From positions 48,157-80,156 of the forward strand of contig NZ_MPKA01000021.1 of NCBI RefSeq assembly GCF_001945605.1: 32,000 nucleotides of DNA, read 5' to 3'. The notes below the pieces were generated by a model. It searched no databases. It had not been told where the DNA came from and was given only the letters and a program-made list of their open reading frames with translations. Shown piece by piece: positions 1 to 31,998 of the stretch (position 1 is the stretch's first letter; the number at the start of each line of letters is the position of its first letter). This DNA comes from Dubosiella newyorkensis (GTDB lineage: Bacteria; Bacillota_I; Bacilli_A; Erysipelotrichales; Erysipelotrichaceae). Position numbers and translations under genes: made by a program.

Positions 1-266
1 ATCGTTTCATTTTCCTCGTAAGCAAGGGCTGTCTGGCTTAAATAATTCGCGTGATTTTCGATTGTCTGCACATAGGTGTCAAACACTGGATGCAGTCTAG
101 AAAACTCTTCCATCAATCTTGAGGAAGCCGGCGAAGTCCAAAACGATTGAACGTCGTGCATTTTAGCTTCGATTGAGAGAAAGATCGCGTTCATCTCTTG
201 TTCCATATTTTTGAGCTGGGCTGCGTATTGTTGTAGATCGGCCGCGCTGATTTTTAATTGTGACAT
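1..266 (-). CDS. WXG100-family (ESAT-6-like) small protein; 3' end cut by the window edge
   Basis: ATG at 266..264 is preceded by the SD AAAGGAAAG. Hand translation gives MSQLKISAADLQQYAAQLKNMEQEMNAIFLSIEAKMHDVQSFWTSPASSRLMEEFSRLHPVFDTYVQTIENHANYLSQTALAYEENE.., a two-helix WXG100 layout. The central motif is W-T-S rather than W-x-G. It lies directly downstream of a second WXG100 gene. It is absent from the ORF track because it is truncated. Confidence 0.7.
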   Translation of the reverse strand, partial: MSQLKISAADLQQYAAQLKNMEQEMNAIFLSIEAKMHDVQSFWTSPASSRLMEEFSRLHPVFDTYVQTIENHANYLSQTALAYEENET

Positions 267-281
267 CGTTTTCTTTCCTTT

Positions 282-572
282 CTACAGATTCCTTGCTTGA
301 GCAAGACGATTTTGTTGGAGCTGTTCATAACTCGAAGCGCATGTCTTCAACACATCGCTATAAGACTGTATAACGTAGACTAACTTTTTTAGCTCTGGCT
401 GAAGCGCTTGAACGTGTTCAATAAAAGCATCGTTGTCGCTTCCCGACCATATAGAAGAGGTTGAAAGCATGTGCTGATTGATCCTTTGGATCATAGATTC
501 GTACTCCAAAGCTTGGCTCGCTAAGCTTTGGCCCGCTTGATGAAGTTCTTGATAGTTGACTTTGATATTCAT
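282..572 (-). CDS. WXG100-family (EsxA/EsxB-like) T7SS substrate
   Basis: 96 aa, with a helix-turn-helix composition and a central IWSGSDNDAF (W-x-G) motif. SD AAAGGG lies upstream. Located in the operon with the EssC-like ATPase. Confidence 0.8.
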   Translation of the reverse strand: MNIKVNYQELHQAGQSLASQALEYESMIQRINQHMLSTSSIWSGSDNDAFIEHVQALQPELKKLVYVIQSYSDVLKTCASSYEQLQQNRLAQARNL

Positions 573-581
573 AGTACCCTT

Positions 582-803
582 TCAATAGACGATCAAATGA
601 TCGCCATGCTGCACGACTTCTTCATGAAATGAAGAATACAAGATTTGAGTCGTCTCTAAAACGACTACATTTTTAAAAACCGATGTCTCATAGAGACGAT
701 TCCATTCAAGAAGAAAGTGCTGGATCTTTAGCTTTGGATCGATCAAAACAAGCTGATATTCTTGTTCATAGACGCACTTGATCCACACATAGAGCTCATT
801 CAT
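582..803 (-). CDS. YukD/EsaB-like ubiquitin-fold T7SS accessory protein
   Basis: 73 aa. The C-terminal ..HGDHLIVY resembles the ..GDRLEIL end of B. subtilis YukD. The start overlaps the EssC stop (ATGAATGA, 8-nt overlap). The size and position next to essC are typical of this family. Confidence 0.55.
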   Translation of the reverse strand: MNELYVWIKCVYEQEYQLVLIDPKLKIQHFLLEWNRLYETSVFKNVVVLETTQILYSSFHEEVVQHGDHLIVY

Positions 804-3800
804 AAATATGAAGACATGCTCCGCAATCGATCGACTCCTCTTGAAACAAGATCATTTCATACGGTTCTAAGATCGATCGCTTATGAAATGTATACGCATA
901 GTCATTGAAGCCAGCTCCAAACCAAGCTAGATCCATGTTTTCGACCAATTTCGTATCCAAAAGCGTTCCCTCTTGGATCTGGATGATCGAAACGTCCGCC
1001 CTTTCATCGATTCTGCCAACACAAATGTCCAGGACCGGATCTTGAGCGCGCCAGATCTGCATCAAATAGAACAGATCCTCTTCTTTTTTTGCTTGAGCAT
1101 AGGCGATCAAGAGCGGTCGCTTACGCTGCCATACGAGAGGAAGACAATCGCTTCCATAGCCCAGCACGTAGCTGGAGAAATAGTTCTTCGCCTGGGAAAG
1201 CGTAAACATTTGATCGATTTGAGGATACGGCGCGGCAAGGCTGTTTTGGTTTTCAGCTTGGCTCCAGATCCCGCTGCAGATCGTCTGTTTATACGCTAGA
1301 TTCATCATTGGAAACTCCTTTCTAGAGATCTTATAGGTTTGCATGAAGGCGCGAGCGTGATCGATATCATAAAACGAGGACAAGATCCGGTATGTGAACA
1401 ATCGATAAAGCTCTTCGTTTCGCGCTTCGTACGAGGAAGTCAAGCAATATATTTTTAAGAACGGAATATTAACGATTCGTTCTACGTCTTTTGTGCCAAA
1501 TACGACCAGCGTGGCTCGTTTCTTCTCCTTGAGCAAAAAATAGAGCGATTTCCATTCAAAGTTTTTGTGCAGGATATAGACATCTGTTTCATGTGCGCAA
1601 ATCGAATCGACGATCTTTTCTTGCGCTTCATGACATAAAATCAGAGCCGATTGTCCATAGGTCAGCTTCGCTTCATAGACTTTTTTTTGCTTCGGCCAAT
1701 CCAATAGCCAAAGCGAAGAAAAGGAACATTCGCCTAACATCGGCATTACGATCGATATAGAGTCTTCTTGGCGCGCCTCGACTTTCTTTCTGACCCAGTT
1801 AAGAAGGCTTTCTTGTTTGAGGTCTTGATTTACGTAGCGGATCGAATCGAGACAAGACGAAGATGAATGGATATAAAAACTTCTTCCTTTCACTTCCTTG
1901 TCCCGACTTCCTTCTTGAAGAATAAATTCTCCGGCACGATTTAAACGACTCGCCCCCTCATGCATGAGCATTTCCCGGGAGTCGGCTGCTGTGTGTACTT
2001 TTAAACAGATCCGATATTTAGAATTGCTCACGATTTGTTCATCCACGATCCCAGCTGGCTTTTGCGTCGCCAGGATCAAATGGATCCCTAAGGAACGGCC
2101 AATGCGAGCAAATTCCTTCAAATCGCTCATCGCATCGGGGAAACGAGATTTTAATTGAGCGAACTCATCGACTACGATCCATAAATGGGCCATTTTATTT
2201 CCTTGTTCTCGATACGCATGAATATTGGCCGGCTTCCCGCTCTCTTCTTGAAAACGTGCCAACGCGACTTGCCTTTCCTCGATCTCTGCTTGCAAGGAAA
2301 GTAGAAAGCGTTCCATCCCCTCTGTCTCAAGATTGGTGATCTTTCCAGCGCAATGCGGAAATCCATAAAAAGCCTGACCGAAAGCGCCTCCCTTGAAATC
2401 GATCAAAATATATTGGAAATCCAAGGAAGAATACGTGTAGGTACCAAAAAGAAGGAGGCTGGAGATGAATTCAGATTTTCCCGAACCGGTGGTTCCCGCG
2501 ATCAATAGATGCCCTTCCTGCAGATCGATCCAAATAAGTTTTCCTTTTTCAAGACCAACCGGAAACGAGTATGAACGGTTGGAAGAGCGAATATAGGCGT
2601 CTTTGATCGAGTCGTTCAACGGCAGAACGTCTCTAGCGTGTGTTTTTTTTTGAAGGAAGAAAGGTCTAGAGATGATGGAATCAAAAGGAAACTCGCTCTT
2701 TTTTAAAGAACAATACAGAAGGGTCCAATGTTCTTCTTGACAAAATCGTTCATCGAGAAGCGCTTCATCACTAGTCACGATCCAATACGATTCTGTTTTG
2801 GATAAAAGGATAGTCGCTTGTTCATAAGATCGTATCGAAAGATAACCCTCCTCGATGCAGAAGGAATCTAAAACCGAATAGGCAGGTTCTCTTTCTAAAA
2901 ACACCCATTTGCTCGTCCGATTCGAAAGCGTGGAAAGATGATCGAACAAAGGCTCGATTTTTTCGCATTGGATCCAGACGCTTTGGCCTTTTTGAATTTC
3001 GCGAAAGATCGGAAGCTTCAAGTCAAGCTGGAGCAGCTGTTCTTTAGCATACGAGTACAACGGATCGTTTCGAGTTTGATAATTGACCTTCGGAAGACTT
3101 GGAAGAGAAAGAGGGATCCATTCAATTTGGATCGGGATCGTTTCTTGTTCAAGAGGATAGAGAGATAATTCTTCTTTAAAAGAATCGAAAGATTGTATGT
3201 ATTGATGGAACGCTTTTTGGATTTCTTGGATCCTTTCTTCGATATAGTTCTGGTACATCGTATTACGATGTTCTTCTTGTTGTTTTCGCTTCCGTTTTTG
3301 AAGGCGGACGTTGAAGAATCCAAGGCTCAAAAAGGAAAATGACATGAGAAGTGTCGTGATCGACGAAAGAAGGATCGATGTGATCGTTTGTTTTTGAGCG
3401 AACACTTGGATCAAGATAGAGATCGTTGTCGAGAGAAAGATCATGATTGAAGGCGCGATCGATTGGATCAGGGAAATCGATTCAGACTCTATCTTTTGAA
3501 GAAAAGCTTCAAGAGGAGAAAAAGAAGGAAGTACAGGAGGCGAGATCGTCTGCTTCATAGGGATCGATTGAATCGTCAATGTGGAGAAAAGCTCTTTGGG
3601 ATCCTTGAAAGAAAGATCGCTGATCAAAAATTTTGGATAATAAAAGATTGTGTGGATCGCAAAACAAATTTGATCGCCTTCATGAAGAGGTACGTTATGA
3701 ACCACTCGTTTGCCATTGACATACGTTCCGTTTTTAGAATAATCGTAAAGAATTCCATTTTCGATCGTGAAATGGAGCAACGAGATCGTAGGATCGAGTT

Positions 3801-3975
3801 CGCAAAAGCTTTCTCGACCAATTTCGATTCGGTGTTCGAAAGCGCACAGAAAGAAAGATTCTACTTTTTTTTGATAGGAATAAGTGGTCGGTTCGGGTAG
3901 TTTTGTTTTTGATTTAGTATGGGTGCGATAGTATACCGTATGAATGTCGTTGTTTATTTGCCCCAATTTATCCAT
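796..3975 (-). CDS. essC: EssC/YukB-like FtsK/SpoIIIE-family T7SS ATPase with N-terminal FHA domain (short form, 1059 aa)
   Basis: FHA-like segment: ..LLHFTIENGILYDYSKNGTYVNGKRV..LHEGDQICF. Two hydrophobic helices at about aa 175-225. Walker A GTTGSGKS at aa 494-501 (nt 2473-2496). Walker B HLWIVVDEFAQL. Confidence 0.85.
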   Translation of the reverse strand: MDKLGQINNDIHTVYYRTHTKSKTKLPEPTTYSYQKKVESFFLCAFEHRIEIGRESFCELDPTISLLHFTIENGILYDYSKNGTYVNGKRVVHNVPLHEGDQICFAIHTIFYYPKFLISDLSFKDPKELFSTLTIQSIPMKQTISPPVLPSFSPLEAFLQKIESESISLIQSIAPSIMIFLSTTISILIQVFAQKQTITSILLSSITTLLMSFSFLSLGFFNVRLQKRKRKQQEEHRNTMYQNYIEERIQEIQKAFHQYIQSFDSFKEELSLYPLEQETIPIQIEWIPLSLPSLPKVNYQTRNDPLYSYAKEQLLQLDLKLPIFREIQKGQSVWIQCEKIEPLFDHLSTLSNRTSKWVFLEREPAYSVLDSFCIEEGYLSIRSYEQATILLSKTESYWIVTSDEALLDERFCQEEHWTLLYCSLKKSEFPFDSIISRPFFLQKKTHARDVLPLNDSIKDAYIRSSNRSYSFPVGLEKGKLIWIDLQEGHLLIAGTTGSGKSEFISSLLLFGTYTYSSLDFQYILIDFKGGAFGQAFYGFPHCAGKITNLETEGMERFLLSLQAEIEERQVALARFQEESGKPANIHAYREQGNKMAHLWIVVDEFAQLKSRFPDAMSDLKEFARIGRSLGIHLILATQKPAGIVDEQIVSNSKYRICLKVHTAADSREMLMHEGASRLNRAGEFILQEGSRDKEVKGRSFYIHSSSSCLDSIRYVNQDLKQESLLNWVRKKVEARQEDSISIVMPMLGECSFSSLWLLDWPKQKKVYEAKLTYGQSALILCHEAQEKIVDSICAHETDVYILHKNFEWKSLYFLLKEKKRATLVVFGTKDVERIVNIPFLKIYCLTSSYEARNEELYRLFTYRILSSFYDIDHARAFMQTYKISRKEFPMMNLAYKQTICSGIWSQAENQNSLAAPYPQIDQMFTLSQAKNYFSSYVLGYGSDCLPLVWQRKRPLLIAYAQAKKEEDLFYLMQIWRAQDPVLDICVGRIDERADVSIIQIQEGTLLDTKLVENMDLAWFGAGFNDYAYTFHKRSILEPYEMILFQEESIDCGACLHIYE

Positions 3976-5381
3976 GTTCTAAACCAAGTGAAGAATGATT
4001 CGAAGGCGGCTTGCACTTGTTCCTTCCAAGTTGGTTTTCTTAGAATCAAGTTTTTCGAAACCACTTCTGTCGTTTTGTCATCATCATAGGTGACTTTGAT
4101 CGTATTTTTAGCTTTCTTTGCCTTCACTTCAATATAAGGCGAGTTTATCGTGTCATATTGAATGTCCTCCTTTTGAATCACTTGATCGTTCCACTTCACG
4201 TTTTTGATTTCCTTCCCTTCTTTATAAGGTAAACGGACGCGGAGAGTCTTAGCCCCGTCTCCATCCTCGATCCGCTCCATTTTTTGATCAAAAAATAGAA
4301 TCTCTTGTTTCGGTTCTGTTTTGTTCGGGATCTCTAGGAGCTTTTGAGGAATTTTGGGTTTTTGAACAGACGGGGGAGTCAAAACAAGGGGTGCAATCTT
4401 CGGTTTTTCGATCGAATCCTCTTTTACGATGGGCAGATATTCGGATTGTGGTGTTTCTTGCACGATTGGTTCTGGAATCGTTGGACGTTGTTCAAGAGGA
4501 AGAATGAATAGCCGTTGAGAAGATGTCCAAGTATTTCCATCCATATCGATCATTTCTATTTGTATATCGAATTCCTGGGATTCTGTCGTTGCTGGCAATG
4601 GAATCGAGAGCATATCCGAATACACTCGCTCATTGATTTTTACTTGAAAAGATTGAGGTGTTTGGCTTGTTTGAACGAATAATCGATCGTTTTCCCAATC
4701 GATGCTCGCATCCAGAGGGATAGGATCATAGCTGAGATTGATCCACTCGACTTCTTCAAGCAAATGCTTGGAGCGCAGTGTAAAAGAATTGATTCCATTT
4801 TCAAGCGTGGTCGTTTCCTCTTTGATCGGGTTTCCATTCTTCAAGATTTCAAGATCCTCTTGCTGCGTGATCGATATATTGTTTCCAGTCTGTTCATAGT
4901 CCGGAAAAATGAGAGGCCTGATCTCGAGAATCTTACTGCTTTCATTCCCGGCTTGATCTTTCAAATGCCATCGGACTGTTTTCATTTCTGGCTCGACGAT
5001 CAATTCGTCGTTTTCATAAAGCACATCGTCGATATAGATCGCACACTCTTTCAGATCCGTATCTAAGATCGAATATGGAAGCGAAGTAGAACGATTTATA
5101 TAAAGATAATCTTGGACGGGTAAAATAAGTTGAGGAGCCGATCGATCGCCAGTGATCGTTTGCACACCTTGTTCAAGGAGCTGATCTTGTTTGTCTTTGA
5201 GTAAAAATTCGAGTTCGAATGTTTGTGAAAGATGGATATCGATCCAATCTTGATCCCATTCTTTTCCATTGATCAAGATTTGACTTTTTTCGCGATCGAC
5301 TTTTTCATGAAATTTTAGATCGATCCTTTCTTCACTCGTTTCGACTTCAATATACGTTGGTGGTGGAAGTGTTGGTTGCAT
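3954..5381 (-). CDS. Hypothetical 475-aa beta-rich (Ig-like) protein with Pro/Lys-rich linker and Trp-rich C-terminal tail
   Basis: Start chosen at MQPTLPPP (ATG 5381..5379) because GGAGG lies 7 nt upstream; the track ORF starts 17 codons earlier. D-x-(A/D)-G-N motifs (KDQAGNES, IDMDGNTW) are typical of Ig-like domain ends. Linker: PLEQRPTIPEPIV..PKIAPLVLTPPSVQKPKIPQK. Tail: FESFFTWFRTWINWGK. No signal peptide or TM helix is seen. The 3' end overlaps the essC start by 22 nt. Confidence 0.6.
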   Translation of the reverse strand: MQPTLPPPTYIEVETSEERIDLKFHEKVDREKSQILINGKEWDQDWIDIHLSQTFELEFLLKDKQDQLLEQGVQTITGDRSAPQLILPVQDYLYINRSTSLPYSILDTDLKECAIYIDDVLYENDELIVEPEMKTVRWHLKDQAGNESSKILEIRPLIFPDYEQTGNNISITQQEDLEILKNGNPIKEETTTLENGINSFTLRSKHLLEEVEWINLSYDPIPLDASIDWENDRLFVQTSQTPQSFQVKINERVYSDMLSIPLPATTESQEFDIQIEMIDMDGNTWTSSQRLFILPLEQRPTIPEPIVQETPQSEYLPIVKEDSIEKPKIAPLVLTPPSVQKPKIPQKLLEIPNKTEPKQEILFFDQKMERIEDGDGAKTLRVRLPYKEGKEIKNVKWNDQVIQKEDIQYDTINSPYIEVKAKKAKNTIKVTYDDDKTTEVVSKNLILRKPTWKEQVQAAFESFFTWFRTWINWGK

Positions 5382-5392
5382 AATTACCTCCT

Positions 5393-6631
5393 TCATGCAA
5401 ATTCGGATGTAAAGAGCTGGAGCTGATCGCAAAGATCGATCAATTCTCGCCCTTCTTCATCCATCGTTTGGATTCTATCAAATGCGTCTGGTAGATACGT
5501 TTCTTTTTCCATGCTCGCGTACAATAAGATCAATTGAATATATCGCTTGATTGCTCGATCATGGACCTCTATTTTTTGGGCAAGTTCTTTTTGTTGATCG
5601 ATTGATAAAACGATTTGATGTTCGATGCATATTTCGATCAAACGAATGAGATCATCTTCTTGCCCGAGCTCTTTTAAAAGAAGAAAGAGTTCACTGGGTT
5701 CGAAATCTTCATCTTTCCCTGCCTGCCATTTTAAAAATAAGACGTTTTGGGCATCGATCGAATGGGTGTCGATTTTTTCCAACCAATATCGGCAAAGGAG
5801 CGGATCTTTTGTACGGATCACTTCGTTTGTGAAATAGTTTTGTTCTTTTTCTTCAAGAAGGGATCGTTCGAGCTTTCCTTCTTCGATCCAGTGATAGAGC
5901 GGACGTCCTTGAGCGATATATTGATCAATCAAATTCCGCGGCTGAAATTGGCACAGTCCAAAAAACAAGACAGACAGAAGAAGGAACAGTGCCAAGATCT
6001 TTATTTTATTTCGACGTTGTTTATAACGCTTGCGGATCGCGTTGGTGCTCGTAAACTGCTTTTTGATCCAGGATCGTTGAACGATTTGATAAAAAAGCGG
6101 GCTAGCATAGGCTAGATCGTCTTTTATCGACTTTAAAGCCTTCGATTGGGAGGGAAGTTCTTGAGAGAAAACATAAATGGAAGAAGTTTTGGAAGGAATA
6201 CAGCCATTGAAATCGATCAGTACAGGACTTCCATTCAAAACGAGTACATTGGAGGGTTTCCAATCGATATATAAGTACCCTGTTTGATGGAACGAATCGA
6301 TCGCATCGAGCAATTCTAAAAGAAATCGGATCCGCGTTTTATAGGCTGGATTTTTTTCGAGCCACGTTTCGAGCGACTGGCCTTCGATCTTTTCTTCAAT
6401 GATCGCAAGTGTGTTTTGTTCTTCGATCACATCGATCAAATGCGGATAATAGACACCTCTAAGTCTCGACAAGATTTCGATCTCCTGCAAATATTGATGC
6501 CTTAAGACAGGATCTTCTGTTTTGAGCATCGTTTTTTTTATCAATTCATTGCCTGTTTTTTCATCTTCTACGATCTCGACTTTTGAAAAATTCGTAAAGC
6601 AAACGATTTCTTTCGTTTTATAGCGGTTCAT
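5393..6631 (-). CDS. EssB/YukC-like membrane protein: N-terminal protein-kinase fold, one TM helix, helical C-terminal domain
   Basis: Kinase-like motifs, numbered from the M at 6631: LIKK (beta3 Lys candidate), LQEIEIL (alphaC Glu), YIDWKPSN (D123, K125, N128 of the catalytic loop), IDFNG (D140, DFG-like). No glycine-rich loop and no APE motif. TM helix: KILALFLLLSVLFFGLCQF. This architecture matches the pseudokinase-TM-helical layout of EssB. An alternative start at 6655 is possible. Confidence 0.6.
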   Translation of the reverse strand: MNRYKTKEIVCFTNFSKVEIVEDEKTGNELIKKTMLKTEDPVLRHQYLQEIEILSRLRGVYYPHLIDVIEEQNTLAIIEEKIEGQSLETWLEKNPAYKTRIRFLLELLDAIDSFHQTGYLYIDWKPSNVLVLNGSPVLIDFNGCIPSKTSSIYVFSQELPSQSKALKSIKDDLAYASPLFYQIVQRSWIKKQFTSTNAIRKRYKQRRNKIKILALFLLLSVLFFGLCQFQPRNLIDQYIAQGRPLYHWIEEGKLERSLLEEKEQNYFTNEVIRTKDPLLCRYWLEKIDTHSIDAQNVLFLKWQAGKDEDFEPSELFLLLKELGQEDDLIRLIEICIEHQIVLSIDQQKELAQKIEVHDRAIKRYIQLILLYASMEKETYLPDAFDRIQTMDEEGRELIDLCDQLQLFTSEFA

Positions 6632-7586
6632 GAAATTCAAGCTGCTTGTTCCCAAAGACGATCTTCATTCCATTCTTTAAGCGCATCTTACGGATAACGC
6701 GCTTCTCGCCAAGAAACGTTCCATTCGCGGACTTGAGATCTTGAAGATAATACCGTTCGTTGGTTTTCGTGATCTTAGCGTGTTTTAATGAGACGCTCGC
6801 TTCTTGTAGGCGTATTTCACAGCTCATCGCTCTACCCACTATCATTTGTTCGAACATTAATTCGTATCGATCTTGGCCATCATACAAATATGCGCTTGTC
6901 TCTTGTTGAGGATGAAAAAGGATTTGAGTATGTTCGAATTCTGGTGTTCTAGCTTCTTCTTCTATAAATTCGATCGCTCGAGAACAATACGTTCCAATTT
7001 CTTCGCGAGCGATAAAACCGCTTTCACGCTTTTGAAGGTGATACCACTTCTTTGGAAAGTATTTTTTTTGAAGCATCTTCAAGCCAATGATCACATTGGG
7101 GATGGAAAATTCTTTTTGGCGCAGGCTTTGATATAAATAGCCGCTAATTTCATAGGCGCTGTTCGTTCGATAGCGTCTTGCAAGATCTTGGATGAATTCT
7201 TTGCATTCATCATGGCGGTACATCCAGCAGTCGAGCTGCAAAGGCAAAACGATAAATCCAAACTCTGTACCCTTTGAAGACACATAGATCGATTCTGTAT
7301 CGAGAAGAACAGGCTTGTTCCGATTGACATTGATCGCTCTTTCTAATAGATCGATCAAAAAACAATAGCCTTCCTCTTCTTGAAAAATATATTGCTCCAA
7401 AAAATAAGAGAGCGGAACCAAATTTTGAAAAGAATAAGAGAGAATATTGGCCTCTAGGTTCGCCTCGATGCAATAGGCATCGGATCGGATCTTCTCAAGG
7501 ATCGATGGATCGATCATTTCTTTTTGTTTGAGATGAATATAAAGTGTTTGATCGCGTTCAATTTTTTTGAGAATTTGTTCTTTCAT
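6618..7586 (-). CDS. FHA-domain protein (C-terminal FHA, about 230-aa N-terminal domain of unknown function)
   Basis: C-terminus: ..MIVGRAMSCEIRLQEASVSLKHAKITKTNERYYLQDLKSANGTFLGEKRV..LKNGMKIVFG, a canonical FHA pattern (G-R...S-x-x-H...N-G-T). SD AAAGGGGA lies upstream. The stop overlaps the next gene by 14 nt. Confidence 0.85.
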   Translation of the reverse strand: MKEQILKKIERDQTLYIHLKQKEMIDPSILEKIRSDAYCIEANLEANILSYSFQNLVPLSYFLEQYIFQEEEGYCFLIDLLERAINVNRNKPVLLDTESIYVSSKGTEFGFIVLPLQLDCWMYRHDECKEFIQDLARRYRTNSAYEISGYLYQSLRQKEFSIPNVIIGLKMLQKKYFPKKWYHLQKRESGFIAREEIGTYCSRAIEFIEEEARTPEFEHTQILFHPQQETSAYLYDGQDRYELMFEQMIVGRAMSCEIRLQEASVSLKHAKITKTNERYYLQDLKSANGTFLGEKRVIRKMRLKNGMKIVFGNKQLEFHEPL

Positions 7587-7840
7587 AACGTCCCCTTTCT
7601 ATGTGCCTCTTATTAAATACGACAAAAATTCAAAAAATGGTCCCAATTTCTAAAATTTTTTTATTTTTTTGTCTTATGCATACGTACCTATTTATTAATC
7701 TATATCTTATATGTTATTAAAATATATTTTTTTCATATAATGTATAGACAAATAAAAAGAATTCGTATATTATGAAGACGTAAAAAATGTATACCCTTTC
7801 AACTAGGATCCATTGGAAGGAAAGAATAAGGAGAGAATTT

Positions 7841-15419: not shown

Positions 15420-17951
15420 TTAAGATAATTTGCGCTTGATCCAAACGATCAATACAATCGAAGTAACCAAAACGGCTAGGCTAGCGAACAATCCAGTCCG
15501 CATGGAAGTAGGCACTTTAGGGGCTACGACTTTAGTTTTTTCATTTTGGAAAGCGAACGTATAGATCGCTTGCTTTTCTTGTTTTTGATCGTCGATCGAA
15601 ACTGTTCCTTTTTCATCCACTACGATCTTCACCTTTCGTTTACTTCGATCATATCCATTAGGCGCCTTTGTTTCTTGGATCGAATACGTGCCTGCCTTCT
15701 GGATCGTAAAGAGAACCGTTCCATTTTGAGGATCTCCTTCCATGTTTTGGAGCATTTCACCCTCTTCGTCATAGAGTGCGAACTCAAAATCAAGAGAAAG
15801 GATCGGTTGATTTTGCATATCCACTTTTTGAACTTGGACTTTGATCGTTTCAAAATCATTTTCAAACAAATATTCAAATGGATTCGATCCAGTTTGCCAT
15901 TGCTCTTTTTCGATCGTTTCCATTTTCTCCAAACGCACATACCCTTGTGGCGCTTCTATTTCTTCAATCGTATAGGAGCCATAAGGAAGATCCGCTTCAA
16001 ACCGAACATTTCCTTCCTTATCGCTATATTGTGTTTCTAGCACTGTATTTTCTTCGATCTCGATTTCTTCTCCCTCTGGATTCACATAAGCGATCTTCTC
16101 TTTATTCGAAAGAGCGAACAAGGAATCCGCGAGAGGTTTTTTCGATTCGGCATCGATTTTTTGAATCTTGATCTTTGCTTTTTTACGTTCGTTTTCAAGC
16201 TTCGCTTTCTGAACAATCAACTGTGTTTCACTATTTTCCGCCTTCAATTCAATCGGATACTTTGTGGAATCTAAAACATAACCGTCTTTGGTTTTCGTTT
16301 CATGAACGACATAGTTTCCCAACGGAAGCTTTGCGCTGAACGCTTTTCCTTCATGATCCGTAGTTAGTTTTTCTACGACTTGTCCTTTTTCATAAAGGAT
16401 CGACTGATCGGCTGGATCTAGAATATCCTCTTGAGCGAGGATCTCGAATTCGACACCTTCAAGACCTTTAAGGGCGTATTCGAAATTCGTCTTGATCACT
16501 TCTTCTTGGATCGTTTCATGATCGACGAGAACTTCTCCTTGTTTTTGGATTTCGATCTGGCCACGAATCGCTTGATTGCTCATTTCGAATTCGATCGTTC
16601 CACTTCCCGTCTGTTCTTTGACGATCCAGTTTTTTTCTGGATCCAAATAATAATCTTTGCCGCTCTTGACTTCTCTTGCCTTATAGATATGATGACTTGA
16701 TTCGTACGCTTGAACTTTCGCGTTTACATCTTGTTCGGCTTTTTTTTGAGCCATCGCTTTTGCATCCGCTTCATTTCTATGAAACCCTTGCGCAAGCCAT
16801 TCATTTTGGCTGGCTTCATCGTACGCATCAAAATTGACTAAATAGTTTTCTTCATACGTTTCGGATTGGAATGTCTGCTTTTCTTGATGCTTGAATTCGA
16901 TCGTTCCTTGCCCGTTCGTCGAGGCGGTATGGATCAAAACATCGTCTTTATAAAATTCGAATTCAACGTTAGGAATCGGTTTTTTCGTCTCCGAATCCGT
17001 TTTCAGCAGCTGTAGATGAATGTTCATATTGCCTTCTTTGCTCGTATCGGCTTTGACTGTTTGTGTTTGCGGAGCGATATCGAGCTGATAATGGAAAGAA
17101 AAACTTGGTGTGTCTATCTTGCCAAAAGAACCGATCGTTTGATTGTTGTTTTGAAAATAGACTTTTTTAGAATTGGTGACTTCGTTCGATGGATATAATG
17201 CTTGATAAGAAAGGGTTCCTGTTTTTGAAGCGCCTTTTTCAAGCCACACGAGCAGCGTGTTTCCTTCCTGTTGGGCTTGAACATGGTCAGGAATCGAAGT
17301 GGAAAAATAATGAGTGAAGACAGAATTGGTGTCTTCTAAACGAATCGCGTTTTCTTTTCCATAACCAGCAAAGGTGATAGTTTGCTGGCTAAAAGAAACA
17401 GGTGTATCGAATGCTTTGATCCGTTCTAAGATCTGATTTCTTTTCTCTTGAACTTCGCTAGGAATATCATAGAGTTCTCCTGGATGTTTGACTTCCCACA
17501 TACAGATTTGGGTAGCGGCAGCCATCGCTTCTGAATAATCGCCTTGATAGCCATAGCCAACACTTTGGATCTTGGAAAGCAGCGCGATCTGTTCGGGCGT
17601 ATATCCTAATCCAAATACGTTTTGAGATAAGACGGCGTCGGCTTGTTCATTGAAGGCTTGAGAACCATACAGGATCGATTGCTCAAACAAAATATCTGGC
17701 TCCAAACAAAAGAGCACTTCATTGCCAACTTTGAAATAGCCAACATACGATAATGGATCATTCCATGAGATATAAGGGTTGTTTCTATCATCCCCTTGGA
17801 ATGTATAGAGCGGATATTTTCGACTCACGCTGGATAGAGGATAGAATTCGGCTTGCCACGTCCCTGAAGCGAACAAGGGGCTGATCATTCCTGTCAAAGT
17901 CATGAGCATGCTCGAAACAATCGCTAATGTAATGTGTAATAGTTTTTTCAT
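15420..17951 (-). CDS. Surface-anchored adhesin: signal peptide, candidate thioester (TQxA-type) domain, CnaB/SpaA-type repeats, C-terminal sorting-signal-like anchor
   Basis: Signal peptide: MKKLLHITLAIVSSMLMTLTGMISPLFASG. Candidate thioester residues: LFC82LEP and AATQ148ICMW. Repeated G-x-Y-x-(I/V)-x-E-x-x-x-P/K-x-GY motifs (LGNYVVHETKTKDGYV, YGSYTIEEIEAPQGYV, AGTYSIQETKAPNGYD). C-terminus: ..PTSMRTG-LFASLAVLVTSIVLIVWI-KRKLS. SD GAAGGAG. Confidence 0.75.
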   Translation of the reverse strand: MKKLLHITLAIVSSMLMTLTGMISPLFASGTWQAEFYPLSSVSRKYPLYTFQGDDRNNPYISWNDPLSYVGYFKVGNEVLFCLEPDILFEQSILYGSQAFNEQADAVLSQNVFGLGYTPEQIALLSKIQSVGYGYQGDYSEAMAAATQICMWEVKHPGELYDIPSEVQEKRNQILERIKAFDTPVSFSQQTITFAGYGKENAIRLEDTNSVFTHYFSTSIPDHVQAQQEGNTLLVWLEKGASKTGTLSYQALYPSNEVTNSKKVYFQNNNQTIGSFGKIDTPSFSFHYQLDIAPQTQTVKADTSKEGNMNIHLQLLKTDSETKKPIPNVEFEFYKDDVLIHTASTNGQGTIEFKHQEKQTFQSETYEENYLVNFDAYDEASQNEWLAQGFHRNEADAKAMAQKKAEQDVNAKVQAYESSHHIYKAREVKSGKDYYLDPEKNWIVKEQTGSGTIEFEMSNQAIRGQIEIQKQGEVLVDHETIQEEVIKTNFEYALKGLEGVEFEILAQEDILDPADQSILYEKGQVVEKLTTDHEGKAFSAKLPLGNYVVHETKTKDGYVLDSTKYPIELKAENSETQLIVQKAKLENERKKAKIKIQKIDAESKKPLADSLFALSNKEKIAYVNPEGEEIEIEENTVLETQYSDKEGNVRFEADLPYGSYTIEEIEAPQGYVRLEKMETIEKEQWQTGSNPFEYLFENDFETIKVQVQKVDMQNQPILSLDFEFALYDEEGEMLQNMEGDPQNGTVLFTIQKAGTYSIQETKAPNGYDRSKRKVKIVVDEKGTVSIDDQKQEKQAIYTFAFQNEKTKVVAPKVPTSMRTGLFASLAVLVTSIVLIVWIKRKLS

Positions 17952-20035: not shown

Positions 20036-20123
20036 GGAGAGTTGTCCGAGCGGCTTAAGGTGCAGTCTTGGAAAGGCTGTGTAGCGAAAGTTACCAAGAG
20101 TTCGAATCTCTTACTCTCCGCCA
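20036..20123 (+). tRNA. tRNA-Ser (anticodon GGA) with encoded CCA
   Basis: Acceptor stem GGAGAGT/ACTCTCC. Anticodon stem CAGTC/GGCTG with loop TTGGAAA (anticodon GGA). Long variable arm. T-arm AGAGTTCGAATCTCT. 3' GCCA. Confidence 0.9.
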
Positions 20124-20219: not shown

Positions 20220-22399
20220 TGAATCGATTTGTTCGAGTTCGATCATACATGCTTCATCGGTTCCTAATTGATCAGGTAAGATTAGACCCGCATCAATGCT
20301 TTTCCCATAAAGAGGTGGCCATCTTCTTTTCGACGATACCAACGATTCTCATCAAGGCCTTGCAAAAAGACGTGCGGCTTTTTCATGTTGGGCCTATGTT
20401 CGAAAACGACCGCTTGCACGATAATCTTCTTTTCATCTTTCGATACAAATGACCATGCGCTGACATTTTGTTGATTCGGATCCGAAAGCCGATAATAATC
20501 TCTTTCTAAAACGAGTTCCTGCATCGATTTATAGACCTTGATTTGTTCTTTGACTTCTTCTTTTTCTTTAGGACTCAATTCAGAAAGATCCAATTCATAA
20601 CCAAATGTTCCAGCCATCGCCACGATCCCTCTTGTGTAAAGAGAAATATTTCGTCCTGTTTGATGATTCGGGATCGCCGAGACATGGGATCCTGTCGCGC
20701 TGATCGGATAAAAGAAGCTAGTCCCGTGTTGGATAAAACAACGATTATGGGCATCTGTATCGTCTTAACACCAATATTGCGGAAAATAGTATAACATTCC
20801 CGTGTCAAAGCGTCCCCCTCCGCCTGCGCATCCTTCAAACAAAATATTTTCAAATCGGGATGTTAGTCGATCTGCAAGATCGTAAACTCCAAGCATATAA
20901 CGATGCGCCATTTCGCTTTGCATTTTTGGACTAAGCGAAGGAGCGTAAAAGTCGCTGATCGAACGATTCATATCCCATTTGATATAATCGATCTCGTTTT
21001 CCTCGATCAACTTAGCAAAAATGTGTTCCAAATAGTCGACCACTTCTGGATTCGCCATATCAAGAACGAGCTGATATCGGCTGCGGGCGGGATCTCGCAA
21101 TGGAGATCGAAGCACCCAATTGGGATGATCGCGATAGAGCTTCGAGTTTTCAGATACCATTTCTGGCTCGATCCACAAGCCAAACTGCATTCCTAAAGCA
21201 TGGATCTTTTCGACAAGTTGTCTTAGCGGCATTTGTAGCTTTTCTTCGTTGACGAACCAGTCTCCTAAGCTTGAATCGTCATTGTGACGCTCTCCAAACC
21301 ATCCATCATCCAAAACGAACAGCTCGATCCCAAGTTCGTACGCGCTTCTCGCGATCGAAAGAAGCTTTTCTCCATTGAAATCGAAATAGGTCGCTTCCCA
21401 GTTGTTGATCAAGATTGGTTTTTTTTGATGAACAAAAGAAGAGCGGATCTAATGAGAACGGATAAAATCGTGATATTGATTGCTTAAAACACCTAATCCT
21501 TTTTCTGAATAGGACAAGATCGCTTATGGCGCGCACAAATGCTCACCTGGTTTCAACTGCCAGCGAAAGTTCTCGCTACGAAGTCCGATCGTCGCACGAA
21601 TCTGATCCAGTTGATCTTTTTCTATATCGGCTTCAAAACCGCCCGAATAGACAAGAAGCATTCCATACGCTTCTCCGCTTGTTTCGTTCGTGTTCTTTTT
21701 CGCAAGGATAATTCCTGGATTGTGCTGATGAGAAGATTGACCACGTCTAGATCCGATAGAAAATGTTCCATGGCTCAAAGACGTGCGCTCTGTAAGTCGT
21801 TCCATGGCATGTCTTCCATGAAAGTGGATCACTTCGTAATCGCTTTCTGGTAAATCGAGACTTGCGCTCACGGCCTTTTTTACTTGAATTTCAAAAGGCG
21901 TCATATTGCGTATCGTGACCGAACGGGTGATTACATTTTCTTCCTCGAAGATCCCATAGAGCCAATATACAAAGATGTCATATACAGTATCCTTGAACGT
22001 GATCTTTAAGGATTGTGTCTTTTGGTCACGATCAAACGAGGCGGGCAGCTTTTCGATCGTATATTTTCCATCGAGAATCTCATAGGAATAATAGCGCAGA
22101 TCGAGCGAAGAAGAACCATCCGGAACTCTCAGTAACAAAGCCGGTTCGCGAAAATCCGAGATCCCGCCGCATGGATACTCAAGAAGACAATCGTTCAGAG
22201 AGTACATTCGGCTTTTTTCCGTATCCCATAAATTGGCAGAAAAGCTGATTTCTGGATAATCTTCGATATAACTCATATCCATTTCTGTATTTGGCCCATA
22301 CCATGTATGGTTCAATATCCCATACTGATCGACTTTCATTTGATAGAGAGAACCGTTTGTCGTCAGCGAAAACACTTGATCTCGTACTTGTATTGACAT
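20199..22399 (-). pseudogene. aga: GH36 alpha-galactosidase pseudogene (three in-frame stops plus one frameshift)
   Basis: A single reading frame carries MSIQVRDQVFSL.., ..PILINNWEATYFDFNGEKLL..DDGWFGERHNDDSSLGDW..KWDMNR..CAGGGGRFD.. and ..GTFGYELDL... It is interrupted by TAA at 21524-21526 (..HLCAP*AILSYSEKG..), TAG at 21449-21451 (..FIRSH*IRSS..) and TAA at 20765-20767 (..PQYWC*DDTDA..). A 1-nt loss at about 20287-20290 moves the conserved tail GLILPDQLGTDEACMIELEQ.. out of frame. Confidence 0.85.
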
Positions 22400-31882: not shown

Positions 31883-31998
31883 AACCGGCAGCGTCCTATT
31901 CTTGCAGGCGCTAAGCCAACTACCTTCGGCGATGGAGTGCTTGACTTCTGTGTTCGGGACGGGAACAGGTATTTCCACTTCTCTGTCACCACCGGATC
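31883..31998 (-). rRNA. rrf: 5S ribosomal RNA
   Basis: The reverse complement reads ..CCGGTGGTGACAGAGAAGTGGAAATACCTGTTCCCGTCCCGAACACAGAAGTCAAGCACTCCATCGCCGAAGGTAGTTGGC..AGAATAGGACGCTGCCGG. It contains the conserved CCCGAACAC, AAGTnAAGC, GCCGAnGGTAG and GTAGGACGC blocks of Firmicute 5S. Helix I pairs CCGGTGGTG with CGCTGCCGG. The ends are accurate to about 3 nt. Confidence 0.9.

What the first reader, a model, noticed from the sequence alone, without database searches (positions are those of the whole stretch)
1..7586. Rearranged, minimal T7SSb-like operon without EsaA/EssA, with FHA, kinase-fold and Ig-like orphan genes
Seven co-directional minus-strand genes run from 7586 to 1 and continue past the left edge. 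They are joined by start/stop overlaps (6618-6631, 3954-3975, 796-803) or gaps of 16 nt or less, so they form one translationally coupled operon.

Recognisable T7SSb parts are an FHA-FtsK/SpoIIIE ATPase (EssC-like), a 73-aa YukD/EsaB-like protein, a kinase-fold/TM/helical EssB-like protein and two WXG100 proteins.

The visible operon lacks the large polytopic EsaA/YueB and the small EssA of the S. aureus/B. subtilis paradigm. The gene order (FHA protein, essB-like, orphan, essC, esaB-like, esx, esx) is not the textbook order esxA-esaA-essA-esaB-essB-essC. Two additional genes (a 322-aa FHA protein and a 475-aa Ig-like protein) have no named T7SS counterpart that I know of.
Basis: partly seen in the sequence, partly recalled or inferred. 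Interest (0 to 1): 0.8.

Follow-up and report, generated by a model that had tools for sequence, protein, structure and literature searches.

The report
Single-ATPase type VII secretion variant
This is a real, intact type VII protein-secretion operon from a gut Erysipelotrichaceae bacterium; it resembles the "T7SSe" variant published in 2024, but its motor protein has one ATPase domain instead of three, a form I did not find in that catalogue.

Summary
Seven tightly coupled minus-strand genes lie at the stated coordinates, and the operon continues past the left edge.

The interpretation needs updating. The kinase-fold protein is not an EssB. It matches true Hanks kinases, and the catalytic Lys, Glu, Asp, Asn and Asp are conserved. 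The two "orphans" do have named counterparts in Garrett, Higginson and Palmer 2024 (T7SSc-j):
- The 322-aa protein is DUF6382+FHA, like TseJ.
- The 475-aa protein is an Ig-like, TseI-like protein.
- The 73-aa protein models as a ubiquitin-like fold, like TsxB.

No EsaA or EssA is encoded in the window or in the 10 kb beyond it.

Three things look new:
- The same ten-gene order recurs in every one of about 27 Erysipelotrichaceae species loci that is long enough to show it. These include Holdemanella, Faecalitalea, Faecalicoccus and Absicoccus.
- The order is FHA protein, kinase, Ig-like protein, EssC, ubiquitin-like protein, two WXG100 proteins, a small helical protein, a glycine-rich 270-aa protein, and DUF4176.
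- The EssC is always 1017-1153 aa with a single Walker A. Its 360-aa C-terminal module is private to this clade.

RefSeq does not name these proteins EssC. Five of their accessions, and the genus names, are absent from the 2024 lists.

Verdict: a new variant of a known kind, probably controlled by threonine phosphorylation. That control is inferred, not shown.

The parts
6618..7586 (-). J: 322-aa cytoplasmic protein. The N-terminal ~230 aa are DUF6382-like and the C-terminal part is an FHA domain (TseJ-like).
   Evidence: FHA E 1.3e-17. DUF6382 (PF19909) hits 11 of 20 orthologues, best E 3.6e-5; the window copy itself is below detection. The GR, SxxH and NG phosphothreonine-binding motifs are conserved in the four orthologues aligned. 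No TM segment.
5393..6631 (-). D: 412-aa single-pass membrane Ser/Thr-kinase-like protein. The compact kinase domain (1-~200) is cytoplasmic, the TM helix is about 208-231, and the C-terminal domain lies outside the cell (TseD-like).
   Evidence: Pkinase E 1.6e-14; no YukC/EssB hit. The best PDB matches are true kinases. The beta3 Lys, alphaC Glu, Y[IV]D[WL]KPxN and LIDFN are conserved in 4 lineages; the glycine loop is degenerate. TM from hydropathy.
3954..5381 (-). X: 475-aa all-beta, Ig-like multidomain protein with a proline-rich linker and a C-terminal Trp-rich amphipathic helix (a small TseI-like protein).
   Evidence: No Pfam hit. A profile search reaches Big-domain proteins, E 3.9e-9. 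AF2: residues 10-156 form two beta-sandwiches at pLDDT 75-90; the rest is low confidence. Foldseek top hits are tandem Ig-like arrays and no EsaA appears among the 50 listed. Some orthologues carry a signal peptide and/or a C-terminal TM helix.
796..3975 (-). C: 1059-aa EssC/TsxC-type motor. It has one FHA domain, two TM helices (about 167-221), a D0-like region, one FtsK/SpoIIIE ATPase (Walker A GTTGSGKS at 494) and a 360-aa C-terminal module with no P-loop.
   Evidence: YukB 9qks_G E 5.9e-50, over residues 444-692 only. One Walker A in 21 of 21 orthologues, against 2-3 in five long EssC controls. The C-terminal module finds only 11 proteins, all 1017-1151 aa except one 112-aa fragment, among 1.84 billion representatives.
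582..803 (-). B: 73-aa ubiquitin-like (beta-grasp) protein ending GDHLIVY, with no Gly-Gly end (TsxB/EsaB-like by fold).
   Evidence: No Pfam, NCBIfam or PDB sequence hit. The AF2 secondary structure is bb-a-bb-b at pLDDT 72.6. Foldseek top 50 are ubiquitin-like domains, TM 0.52-0.73. There is a weak in-register alignment to YukD.
282..572 (-). A1: 96-aa WXG100 protein with a conserved W-x-G.
   Evidence: WXG100 E 1.9e-11. W-x-G is present in 17 of 17 orthologues.
1..266 (-). A2: second WXG100 protein (96 aa in full; the window holds 88 codons). It has W-x-S-P-A-S instead of W-x-G and a conserved C-terminal Y-x-x-x-E.
   Evidence: WXG100 E 1.2e-10 and ESAT6_2 E 2.6e-18. Full length seen on L001 13710-14000. 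Both motifs are conserved in 17 of 17 orthologues; 20 of 96 residues are identical to A1.
7587..7786 (.). 200-nt intergenic region between the first operon gene and the divergent PTS EIIC gene. This is the presumed promoter region.
   Evidence: The position follows. The consensus scan found no convincing minus-strand promoter here, so the promoter itself is not identified.

Best explanation
The window holds the first seven genes of an eleven-gene operon for a type VII secretion system of the 'variant' class (T7SSc-j of Garrett et al. 2024). It is closest to T7SSe, in a reduced form specific to Erysipelotrichaceae.

Proposed working (inferred unless marked as shown):
- The membrane machine is built from the EssC-type motor C. 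Shown: it has one FHA domain, two TM helices and one functional-looking FtsK ATPase. It works with the single-pass kinase D and the ubiquitin-like protein B, which in known T7SS docks on the motor.
- The Ig-like protein X, which is membrane-tethered in many relatives, extends into the cell wall. It would play the part taken by EsaA or TseI.
- The two WXG100 proteins form a heterodimer. A2 carries the conserved C-terminal Y-x-x-x-E export signal. The heterodimer is exported and is needed for export of other cargo.
- The next three genes, just beyond the window, form a cargo module: a 62-aa helical targeting partner, a conserved 270-aa protein and its DUF4176 (Ltc-type) chaperone. The 270-aa protein has a WXG/LXG-like N-terminus and a glycine-rich C-terminus that probably acts on membranes.
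- Activity is switched by threonine phosphorylation. Kinase D keeps all catalytic residues and phosphorylates itself or a partner. The two FHA domains (in C and in J) keep the phosphothreonine-binding residues and read the mark to assemble or activate the machine. A PP2C phosphatase, encoded next to the operon in this lineage, resets it. This is the logic of the T6SS PpkA/Fha1/PppA pathway.
- Because ATPase domains D2 and D3 are replaced by a fast-evolving module without a P-loop, substrate recognition must work differently from T7SSa and T7SSb.
For: T7SS identity:
- EssC-type ATPase (TIGR03928 E 4.2e-78; YukB 9qks_G E 5.9e-50) plus two WXG100 genes.
- B models as a ubiquitin-like fold.
- DUF4176 E 7.2e-30. 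This family is a set of T7SS toxin chaperones (PMC12478183).

Affinity to T7SSe:
- J is DUF6382+FHA.
- D is a TM kinase with conserved catalytic residues.
- There are two non-identical WXG100 proteins.
- X is Ig-like, and orthologues have a signal peptide and/or a C-terminal TM helix.
- The order D-I-C-B-A1-A2 is the same as in a locus with a T7SSe-type gene set, L040.
- The nearest long EssCs in a neighbour-joining tree belong to that clade.
- The GR, SxxH and NG motifs of the EssC FHA domain are conserved in at least 90% of 21 orthologues. This is the pattern reported for TsdC, TseC and TsjC but not for T7SSb EssC (Table S1).

A functional, selected system:
- The same ten-gene order occurs in every locus long enough to show it, across about 27 species, plus loci L039 and L042.
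- The ORFs are intact, and the Walker A and DE of Walker B are conserved.

Single ATPase.

PP2C:
- PP2C_2 E 6.7e-31, four genes downstream.
- The linkage is kept in the closest relative, L042, although its upstream flank differs.

Cargo module:
- The 270-aa protein is 33-39% identical across the Erysipelotrichaceae orthologues (27% to L039), more than EssC at 28-30%.
- Its N-terminus weakly resembles WXG100.
Against: - Nothing here shows secretion, kinase activity or phosphorylation.
- The kinase has a degenerate glycine-rich loop and a truncated C-lobe, so it could be a pseudokinase scaffold like EssB.
- PP2C is absent from the 10 kb downstream in Absicoccus-type and Faecalicoccus-type loci and in L039.
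- In this contig PP2C appears to have its own promoter, after a terminator-like hairpin.
- The window's own X has neither a signal peptide nor a TM helix, so an extracellular location is not assured here.
- The X model is low confidence overall (pLDDT 50).
- B is linked to YukD by fold class only. YukD itself was not among the top 50 Foldseek hits, and the profile comparisons were not significant.
- The TseH and TseK counterparts are not evident.
- The tree has no bootstrap support and used no published reference sequences.
Confidence: 0.7

Rival explanations
1. It is simply a member of the already published T7SSe. Nothing here is new beyond a new host family.
For: The component set overlaps strongly: A1, A2, B, an FHA-bearing C with phosphothreonine motifs, D, an I-like protein and J. 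PP2C is nearby in this lineage. The core gene order is the same as in L040.
Against: The paper says every TsxC has four NTPase-type domains, and its representative is 1572 aa. Here there is one P-loop in 1017-1153 aa, in all 21 orthologues checked. TseH and TseK are not found, and TseF is not conserved. The short EssCs form their own long branch. Five RefSeq accessions of this clade and the genus names are absent from the paper's accession lists. One of the supplementary files I searched is truncated.
Confidence: 0.2
2. It is a decaying remnant of a T7SS. The short EssC is a truncated, non-functional gene, and the operon is on its way to loss.
For: The EssC is about 450 aa shorter than usual. 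Its C-terminal third is poorly conserved (mean majority-residue frequency 0.28-0.45 per 50-residue block). X has lost its signal peptide and TM helix in some lineages.
Against: The same shortened length, intact reading frames, translational coupling and invariant Walker A and Walker B motifs are kept across genera that share only 27-30% EssC identity. The Holdemanella EssC cluster alone has more than 4000 member sequences in public data. A remnant would not keep ten genes in order at that divergence.
Confidence: 0.05
3. It is a canonical T7SSb whose missing parts (EssB, EsaA, EssA) are encoded elsewhere in the genome. The kinase, the FHA protein and the Ig-like protein are unrelated neighbours.
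For: The window comes from an incomplete MAG, so the rest of the genome could not be searched. T7SS accessory genes can be dispersed.
Against: The kinase, FHA and Ig-like genes are translationally coupled to the EssC gene. They stay with it in every locus examined, although the flanking genes differ. The EssC fails the T7SSb EssC model cut-off (263 against 778 bits). Its FHA domain has the phosphothreonine motifs that T7SSb EssC lacks.
Confidence: 0.05
4. The kinase-like protein is a catalytically dead scaffold, functionally equivalent to EssB. The FHA domains then bind phosphothreonines written by the housekeeping PASTA kinase, or bind without phosphate. The system is a T7SS but is not self-regulated.
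For: The glycine-rich loop is degenerate. The kinase domain is compact at about 200 aa, with no recognisable APE motif or full C-lobe, like the EssB pseudokinase. PP2C is not conserved in the cluster across genera.
Against: The beta3 Lys, alphaC Glu, catalytic Asp, Asn and the DFG Asp are all conserved in four lineages that share only 24-27% identity. EssB has lost all three catalytic motifs (PMC12599244). Garrett et al. also describe the TscD active site as conserved.
Confidence: 0.3

Closest known systems
T7SSe (Garrett, Higginson and Palmer 2024, Microlife 5:uqae013; example Neobacillus sp. 114)
   Same: - Two non-identical WXG100 proteins.
- A small ubiquitin-like protein that InterPro does not detect.
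- An EssC with an N-terminal FHA domain that keeps the GR, SxxH and NG motifs.
- A single-pass membrane Ser/Thr kinase with an intact active site.
- A cytoplasmic DUF6382+FHA protein and an Ig-like envelope protein.
- A PP2C phosphatase, present in this lineage.
- The same core order: kinase, Ig-like protein, EssC, ubiquitin-like protein, WXG, WXG (L040).
   Different: - EssC is 1017-1153 aa with one P-loop, against about 1570 aa with four NTPase-type domains.
- The Ig-like protein is 3-4 times smaller and often lacks the signal peptide or the TM helix.
- No evident TseH or TseK.
- PP2C is not a conserved cluster member.
- A conserved trio of small helical protein, 270-aa glycine-rich protein and DUF4176 is part of the cluster.
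- The host family is Erysipelotrichaceae, and the proteins are absent from the paper's accession lists.
T7SSb (Ess/Yuk system of Staphylococcus aureus and Bacillus subtilis)
   Same: - An FHA-bearing membrane FtsK-type ATPase.
- A WXG100 substrate and a ubiquitin-like small protein.
- A single-pass membrane protein with a cytoplasmic kinase-fold domain.
- DUF4176-type chaperones with helical partner proteins for cargo.
   Different: - No EsaA and no EssA.
- The kinase-fold protein is not in the EssB/YukC family and keeps the catalytic residues.
- The FHA domains keep the phosphothreonine-binding residues.
- One FHA domain and one ATPase domain, instead of two and three.
- A WXG100 pair instead of a single homodimeric EsxA.
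T6SS threonine-phosphorylation pathway (PpkA / Fha1 / PppA of Pseudomonas aeruginosa; the TssL-Fha pathway of Agrobacterium tumefaciens)
   Same: A membrane Hanks-type kinase, an FHA-domain protein and a PP2C phosphatase are encoded with a secretion machine. This would give a post-translational on/off switch. It is an analogy of logic, already drawn by Garrett et al..
   Different: The secretion machine is unrelated and there is no protein homology beyond the generic domains. Phosphorylation here is untested.
T7SSa ESX systems (EsxA/EsxB with EccC)
   Same: A heterodimer-type WXG100 pair in which only one partner carries a conserved C-terminal Y-x-x-x-D/E-type motif (A2).
   Different: There are no EccB, EccD, EccE or MycP. 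In ESX systems the motif is bound by EccC domain D3, which does not exist here.

Membership tests
Type VII secretion system (generic) | A membrane-bound EccC/EssC-type FtsK/SpoIIIE ATPase | tested here: met
   FtsK_SpoIIIE E 3.3e-18. Best NCBIfam hit is T7 EssC, E 4.2e-78. YukB 9qks_G E 5.9e-50. Two TM helices.
Type VII secretion system (generic) | A WXG100 (EsxA-type) protein encoded in the cluster | tested here: met
   Two WXG100 genes, E 1.9e-11 and 1.2e-10.
Type VII secretion system (generic) | EssC-dependent export of the WXG100 proteins | not testable with these tools
   Needs a deletion mutant and secretome analysis.
T7SSb | EssB/YukC-family pseudokinase membrane protein | tested here: not met
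   No PF10140 or NCBIfam EssB hit at E up to 1. The protein matches Pkinase and true kinases instead, and its catalytic residues are retained.
T7SSb | EsaA/YueB polytopic membrane protein | tested here: not met
   No such hit for any product of the window or of the 10 kb beyond its left edge. X has no TM helix, and the 50 listed Foldseek hits are Ig-like arrays, not EsaA.
T7SSb | EssA/YueC small membrane protein | tested here: not met
   No hit, and the operon has no small TM protein.
T7SSb | EssC reaches the equivalog model TIGR03928 (three ATPase domains, two FHA domains without phosphothreonine motifs) | tested here: not met
   263 bits against a cut-off of 778. One Walker A. GR, SxxH and NG motifs present.
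T7SSb | EsaB/YukD-family protein | tested here: inconclusive
   No PF08817 hit, and profile against the PDB is negative. hhalign to YukD gives E 0.044, in register. The fold is ubiquitin-like.
T7SSe (Garrett 2024) | Pair of non-identical WXG100 proteins (TseA1, TseA2) | tested here: met
   20 of 96 residues identical. Each has its own conserved motifs.
T7SSe (Garrett 2024) | TseC: EssC with an N-terminal FHA domain that keeps the phosphothreonine-binding motifs | tested here: met
   G53, R54, S65, H68, N82 and G83 are conserved in at least 90% of 21 orthologues.
T7SSe (Garrett 2024) | TseC has four C-terminal NTPase-type domains (about 1570 aa) and falls in the TseC clade | tested here: not met
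   One Walker A; 1017-1153 aa; the C-terminal 360 aa have no P-loop. It forms a separate long branch next to a clade with T7SSe-type context (no bootstrap, no published references). The accessions are not in the TseC list.
T7SSe (Garrett 2024) | TseD: single-pass membrane Ser/Thr kinase | tested here: met
   Pkinase E 1.6e-14, one TM helix, catalytic residues conserved. The family HMM hits the kinase of L040 at E 7e-23.
T7SSe (Garrett 2024) | TseJ: cytoplasmic DUF6382 + FHA protein | tested here: met
   FHA in 20 of 20 orthologues. DUF6382 in 11 of 20, best E 3.6e-5; the window copy itself is below detection. No TM helix.
T7SSe (Garrett 2024) | [quoted passage not shown] | tested here: inconclusive
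   Ig-like character is supported. A signal peptide and/or a C-terminal TM helix is present in several orthologues but in neither position in the window's copy. It is only 475 aa.
T7SSe (Garrett 2024) | TseB: ubiquitin-like protein | tested here: met
   AF2 plus Foldseek. The hit types (TBCE UBL and similar) are the same as those the paper lists for TsxB.
T7SSe (Garrett 2024) | TseF: PPM/PP2C phosphatase at the locus | tested here: inconclusive
   Present four genes downstream in this contig and in L042, probably as a separate transcript. Absent from L007, L008 and L039.
T7SSe (Garrett 2024) | TseH and TseK: small single-TM proteins (TseK is zinc-ribbon-like) | tested here: not met
   The operon has no small TM protein. 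A 247-aa protein with zinc-ribbon, GYF and DUF4234 domains and three hydrophobic segments lies about 6 kb downstream, but it is not conserved with the cluster. L039 has a 52-aa TM protein between D and X.
Phosphothreonine switch of a secretion system (works like the T6SS pathway) | Kinase with intact catalytic residues, FHA reader with an intact phosphothreonine pocket, and a PP2C eraser, all encoded together | tested here: met
   The eraser is present only in this sub-lineage.
Phosphothreonine switch of a secretion system (works like the T6SS pathway) | Secretion depends on phosphorylation | not testable with these tools
   Needs kinase-dead and FHA-pocket mutants plus phosphoproteomics.

The most novel reading that the evidence does not exclude
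The Erysipelotrichaceae cluster is a distinct T7SS subtype not yet catalogued; it would be the next letter after T7SSj. It is carried by abundant human and animal gut commensals such as Holdemanella biformis. It runs on an EssC with a single ATPase domain, which would show that the D2 and D3 domains are dispensable for type VII export and that substrate recognition has moved to a clade-specific C-terminal module. It exports a conserved glycine-rich 270-aa protein as a core cargo, not a polymorphic toxin. It carries its own kinase/FHA switch.
Probability: 0.45. Interest if true: 0.7.

Novelty: new variant of a known kind. Interest (0 to 1): 0.6.

Why it matters
- **Minimal motor.** T7SS mechanism is currently explained through the three-ATPase EccC/EssC, in which the distal domains bind substrates and gate the active one. 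A conserved natural system with only one ATPase domain would be a minimal model. It would test which parts of the motor are really needed.
- **Regulation.** The locus contains a compact phospho-signalling set: a kinase, two FHA readers and, in this lineage, a PP2C. This makes the proposed and still untested phospho-regulation of variant T7SSs directly testable.
- **Hosts.** The carriers include cultured and widespread gut commensals (Holdemanella, Faecalitalea, Faecalicoccus, Absicoccus). Their interactions with neighbouring bacteria or with the host are poorly understood.
- **Annotation.** Public annotation labels only the two WXG100 genes as T7-related, so genome surveys currently miss these systems.

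Tried and rejected
- **X homologues.** A single-sequence search with X found only near-identical copies. A profile search added one orthologue and two distant Big-domain proteins, so the AF2 alignment was thin and the model poor (pLDDT 50).
- **B against YukD.** Sequence tests were negative or insignificant: a PDB profile search, hhalign at E 0.044 and probability 1%, and an HMM against a Pfam-positive YukD at E 0.057 among 30 targets. Only the fold supports the link.
- **J N-terminal domain.** Its profile hit nothing in the PDB apart from FHA domains.
- **The 270-aa protein.** No hit in the PDB, Pfam or NCBIfam.
- **PP2C as a core component.** Considered and rejected for the family as a whole. 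It is kept only in the window's sub-lineage.
- **Promoter.** The scan found none on the operon strand in the upstream intergenic region.
- **EsaA identity for X.** Rejected.
- **The 662-aa surface protein downstream as a TseI equivalent.** It has a signal peptide, a beta-helix, a MucBP domain and a C-terminal TM helix. Rejected because it is not conserved with the cluster.
- **Published TsxC sequences.** I did not extract the ten reference sequences from the supplementary PDF for a formal phylogeny. I used contexts of database hits instead.
- **Limits of the literature check.** The absence of these genera and accessions from the Garrett supplements is limited by one truncated file. A literature search for Erysipelotrichaceae or Holdemanella together with T7SS terms found nothing relevant.

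Full report
**1. The observation**

The ORF list shows the seven co-directional minus-strand genes at the coordinates given. The overlaps are 14 nt (6618-6631), 22 nt (3954-3975) and 8 nt (796-803). The gaps are 11, 9 and 15 nt.

Pfam and NCBIfam results:
- The 322-aa protein has a C-terminal FHA domain (E 1.3e-17).
- The 412-aa protein has an N-terminal protein-kinase domain (E 1.6e-14).
- The 1059-aa protein has an FHA domain plus a single FtsK/SpoIIIE domain. Its best NCBIfam hit is T7 EssC, at 263 bits against a cut-off of 778.
- The 96-aa protein and the edge-truncated protein are WXG100.
- The 73-aa and 475-aa proteins hit nothing.

The identical EssC sequence is on 20 contigs in public assemblies, including MAGs GCA_948706785.1 and GCA_948685775.1. 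This let me read 10 kb beyond the left edge as locus L001. The operon continues there with:
- the rest of the second WXG100 gene;
- a 62-aa gene and a 270-aa gene;
- a DUF4176 gene (E 7.2e-30);
- a lipoprotein gene, followed by a terminator-like hairpin.

After that come a PP2C_2 phosphatase gene (E 6.7e-31) preceded by a promoter-like site, a hexapeptide-repeat gene, a 662-aa surface-protein gene and a gene for a zinc-ribbon/GYF/DUF4234 membrane protein. No EsaA, EssA or EssB family member appears anywhere in that stretch or in the rest of the window.

**2. The literature changes the framing**

Garrett, Higginson and Palmer (Microlife 2024, PMC11217815) describe eight T7SS variants beyond T7SSa and T7SSb. 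Several contain membrane Ser/Thr kinases (TsxD), PP2C phosphatases (TsxF), DUF6382+FHA proteins (TsxJ), Ig-like envelope proteins (TsxI) and ubiquitin-like TsxB proteins.

The paper notes that the FHA domains of TsdC, TseC and TsjC keep the phosphothreonine-binding motifs GR, SxxH and NG, whereas T7SSb EssC does not (Table S1). It also proposes T6SS-like control by threonine phosphorylation. The closest described system is T7SSe, not T7SSb.

**3. Testing each component**

*Kinase (D).* It matches real kinases in the PDB and not EssB/YukC. There is no YukC or EssB family hit. In four lineages only 24-27% identical, the following are all conserved: the beta3 Lys, the alphaC Glu, the Y[IV]D[WL]KPxN catalytic loop and the LIDFN (DFG-type) Asp. 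The glycine loop is degenerate and the C-lobe is short. EssB has lost all three catalytic motifs (PMC12599244). One TM helix (208-231) follows a Lys/Arg-rich stretch, which places the kinase domain in the cytoplasm (positive-inside rule).

*FHA protein (J).* DUF6382 is detected in 11 of 20 orthologues (best E 3.6e-5), though not in the window's own copy. FHA is detected in all 20. The GR, SxxH and NG motifs are conserved in the four orthologues aligned.

*73-aa protein (B).* All sequence tests against YukD failed or were insignificant. An AF2 model built from 14 orthologues (pLDDT 72.6) has the strand-strand-helix-strand-strand-strand order of a beta-grasp fold. Its top 50 Foldseek hits are all ubiquitin-like domains, with TM-scores of 0.52-0.73. 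These are the same kinds of hits the 2024 paper lists for TsxB. The protein ends in GDHLIVY and has no Gly-Gly.

*475-aa protein (X).*
- No TM helix or signal peptide in the window's copy.
- A profile of 20 orthologues reaches proteins with bacterial Ig-like (Big) domains, E 3.9e-9 and 1.8e-5.
- The AF2 model is poor overall (pLDDT 50). Residues 10-156 form two confident beta-sandwiches and the rest is predicted as all-beta, with a disordered proline-rich linker and a terminal helix.
- Foldseek returns tandem Ig-like arrays (SbsB, SiiE, titin). No EsaA appears among the 50 listed hits.
- Orthologues in Faecalicoccus and others carry a Sec-type signal peptide, and many end in a clear TM helix. 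This is the TseI topology on a much smaller protein.

*WXG100 pair (A1, A2).* A1 keeps W-x-G. A2 has W-x-S-P-A-S and a C-terminal Y-x-E-N-E in 17 of 17 orthologues. This suggests a heterodimer with one signal-bearing partner.

**4. The unexpected part: the motor**

Only four full-length relatives of the EssC surfaced among the 120 listed hits of the large word-indexed search. All other hits (1246-1660 aa, apart from one 959-aa Streptococcus entry) matched mainly the D1 ATPase domain, about a fifth to a third of the query.

A genome scan with the J alignment then found 27 loci. Nearly all are Erysipelotrichaceae: Holdemanella biformis DSM 3989, H. hominis, H. porci, Faecalitalea cylindroides ATCC 27803, Faecalicoccus acidiformans, Catenisphaera, Floccifex, Absicoccus and Solobacterium. 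The best identity to the window's J is only 42-44%, so the window's own species is not among the reference genomes.

Every locus long enough shows the same ten-gene order, with an EssC of 1048-1153 aa.

Evidence that the motor has a single ATPase:
- All 21 orthologues checked have exactly one Walker A. Five long EssC controls have two or three.
- The D1 Walker A, the DE of Walker B and the TQKP motifs are conserved in at least 90% of the orthologues.
- The last ~360 residues have no P-loop. They are poorly conserved and show only faint HMM similarity to the D2/D3 region.
- Searched against 1.84 billion representative proteins, this module finds 11 proteins. Ten are 1017-1151 aa, with the match at the C-terminus; the eleventh is a 112-aa fragment.
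- The single FHA domain aligns with the second FHA domain of long EssCs.

**5. Relation to T7SSe**

- L039 has a 1316-aa EssC that also carries only one Walker A. It shows the same gene order with a 945-aa Big-domain X and a 52-aa TM protein, so it looks like an intermediate form.
- L040, the locus of a long EssC hit, has a T7SSe-type gene set: zinc-ribbon protein, PP2C, kinase, two small genes, a 2076-aa protein, EssC, an 83-aa protein, two WXG100 genes and lipases. It shares the order kinase, large protein, EssC, small protein, WXG, WXG.
- L041 has a T7SSj/f-type context.
- In a neighbour-joining tree of D0-D1, the short EssCs form one long-branched clade. Their nearest long neighbours belong to the clade that holds the L040 EssC. 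The tree has no bootstraps and includes no published reference sequences.
- RefSeq names the short EssCs only 'FtsK/SpoIIIE domain-containing protein' or 'FHA domain-containing protein'. It names B, X, the 57-aa protein and the 264-aa protein 'hypothetical'.
- Five RefSeq accessions of short EssCs, five neighbour-gene accessions, six genus names and the term DUF4176 are all absent from the 2024 supplementary files. One of those files is truncated in the copy I searched.
- No paper linking Erysipelotrichaceae or Holdemanella with T7SS was found.

**6. The cargo module and the phosphatase**

The 270-aa protein is conserved at 33-39% across the Erysipelotrichaceae orthologues (27% to L039), more than EssC itself. 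It has a near-invariant C-terminus, SYxHKxREWEFGxKLGFIAGLGFKI. Its N-terminal ~70 residues weakly resemble the second helix of WXG100.

DUF4176 proteins are toxin-specific chaperones of T7SSb (PMC12478183). I therefore read the 62-aa, 270-aa and DUF4176 genes as a targeting partner, a substrate and a chaperone. No conserved immunity gene follows them. For that reason I lean towards a core cargo, not a polymorphic toxin, but this is inference.

The PP2C gene follows the operon in the window's contig and in its closest relative L042, although the upstream flanks differ. It is absent from the 10 kb downstream in Absicoccus-type and Faecalicoccus-type loci and in L039. It has the DGHG, SDG and DD motifs of active PP2C enzymes (read from the sequence).

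**7. Mechanism**

*Shown:* the gene content, order, coupling and conservation; the single P-loop; the intact catalytic and phosphothreonine-binding motifs; and the fold classes of B and part of X.

*Inferred:* C, D and B form the membrane core; X extends into the wall; A1/A2 and the 270-aa protein are exported; and the kinase and FHA domains switch assembly or activity, reset by PP2C where it is present. Candidate phospho-sites are the Ser/Thr-rich stretch after the DFN motif of D and the Thr-rich N-terminal tail of C. This last point is pure speculation.

The main rivals are that the locus is plain T7SSe, or that D is a dead scaffold.

**8. Verdict**

The finding is real, and it is a T7SS.

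The specific Erysipelotrichaceae form appears uncatalogued. It has a single-ATPase EssC, a small Ig-like protein and a conserved cargo trio. I rate it a new variant of a known kind, with interest about 0.6.

Noticed in passing
window 20765-22399 (- strand): A GH36 alpha-galactosidase appears split into two ORFs: the N-terminal domain (21524-22399, 291 aa) and a Melibiase fragment covering profile positions 44-257 of 347 (20765-21412, 215 aa). They are separated by about 110 nt. This is a probable frameshift, pseudogene or assembly error.
   Followed up: no
window 31883-31996 (- strand) and 20036-20123 (+ strand): A 5S rRNA gene lies at the right edge of the window, so an rrn operon probably continues beyond it. 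There is also a tRNA-Ser(GGA) gene.
   Followed up: no
window 15420-17951 (- strand): An 843-aa surface protein with three SpaA (prealbumin-like) domains, E 4.2e-48. It is unrelated to the T7SS operon as far as I can see.
   Followed up: no
L001 17975-19963 and 20033-20776 (left of the window): Two genes lie downstream of the PP2C unit. One encodes a 662-aa protein with a signal peptide, beta-helix-like repeats, a MucBP domain and a C-terminal TM anchor. The other encodes a 247-aa zinc-ribbon/GYF/DUF4234 membrane protein. The zinc-ribbon protein recalls TseK (described as zinc-ribbon-like with one TM helix), but it is not conserved with the cluster in other genera.
   Followed up: partly
window 1-266; L001 13710-14000 and orthologues: The second WXG100 protein never has W-x-G. 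It has an invariant W-x-S-P-A-S and a C-terminal Y-x-E-N-E in 17 of 17 orthologues. That resembles the Y-x-x-x-D/E export signal of mycobacterial EsxB-type proteins, although the EssC domain that binds that signal in ESX systems is missing here.
   Followed up: partly
X orthologues in L010-L037 (window 3954-5381 is the local copy): The topology signals of the Ig-like protein vary between genera. Some copies have a Sec signal peptide plus a C-terminal TM helix, some have the TM helix only, and some have neither, ending instead in a Trp/Lys-rich amphipathic helix (the window, Holdemanella, Absicoccus, Catenisphaera). I cannot explain how the copies without a signal peptide would reach the cell surface.
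   Followed up: partly
L016, L034, L035: Three MAG contigs labelled Waltera intestinalis, Bacteroidaceae bacterium and Segatella copri carry this Erysipelotrichaceae-type cluster. The likeliest cause is mis-binning, not horizontal transfer.
   Followed up: no
L039 4459-16161: This is a related cluster with a 1316-aa EssC that still has only one Walker A, a 945-aa Big-domain X, a 52-aa CcmD-like TM protein and a kinase gene split into 166-aa and 348-aa ORFs. It could be an evolutionary intermediate between T7SSe and the short form.
   Followed up: partly
L007 15346-17284 and L008 15563-17504: In the Absicoccus-type and Faecalicoccus-type loci the cluster is followed by two conserved reverse-strand genes (about 304 and 343 aa, no Pfam hit) and then the suf operon. 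I did not test whether those two genes relate to the T7SS, for example as immunity genes.
   Followed up: no
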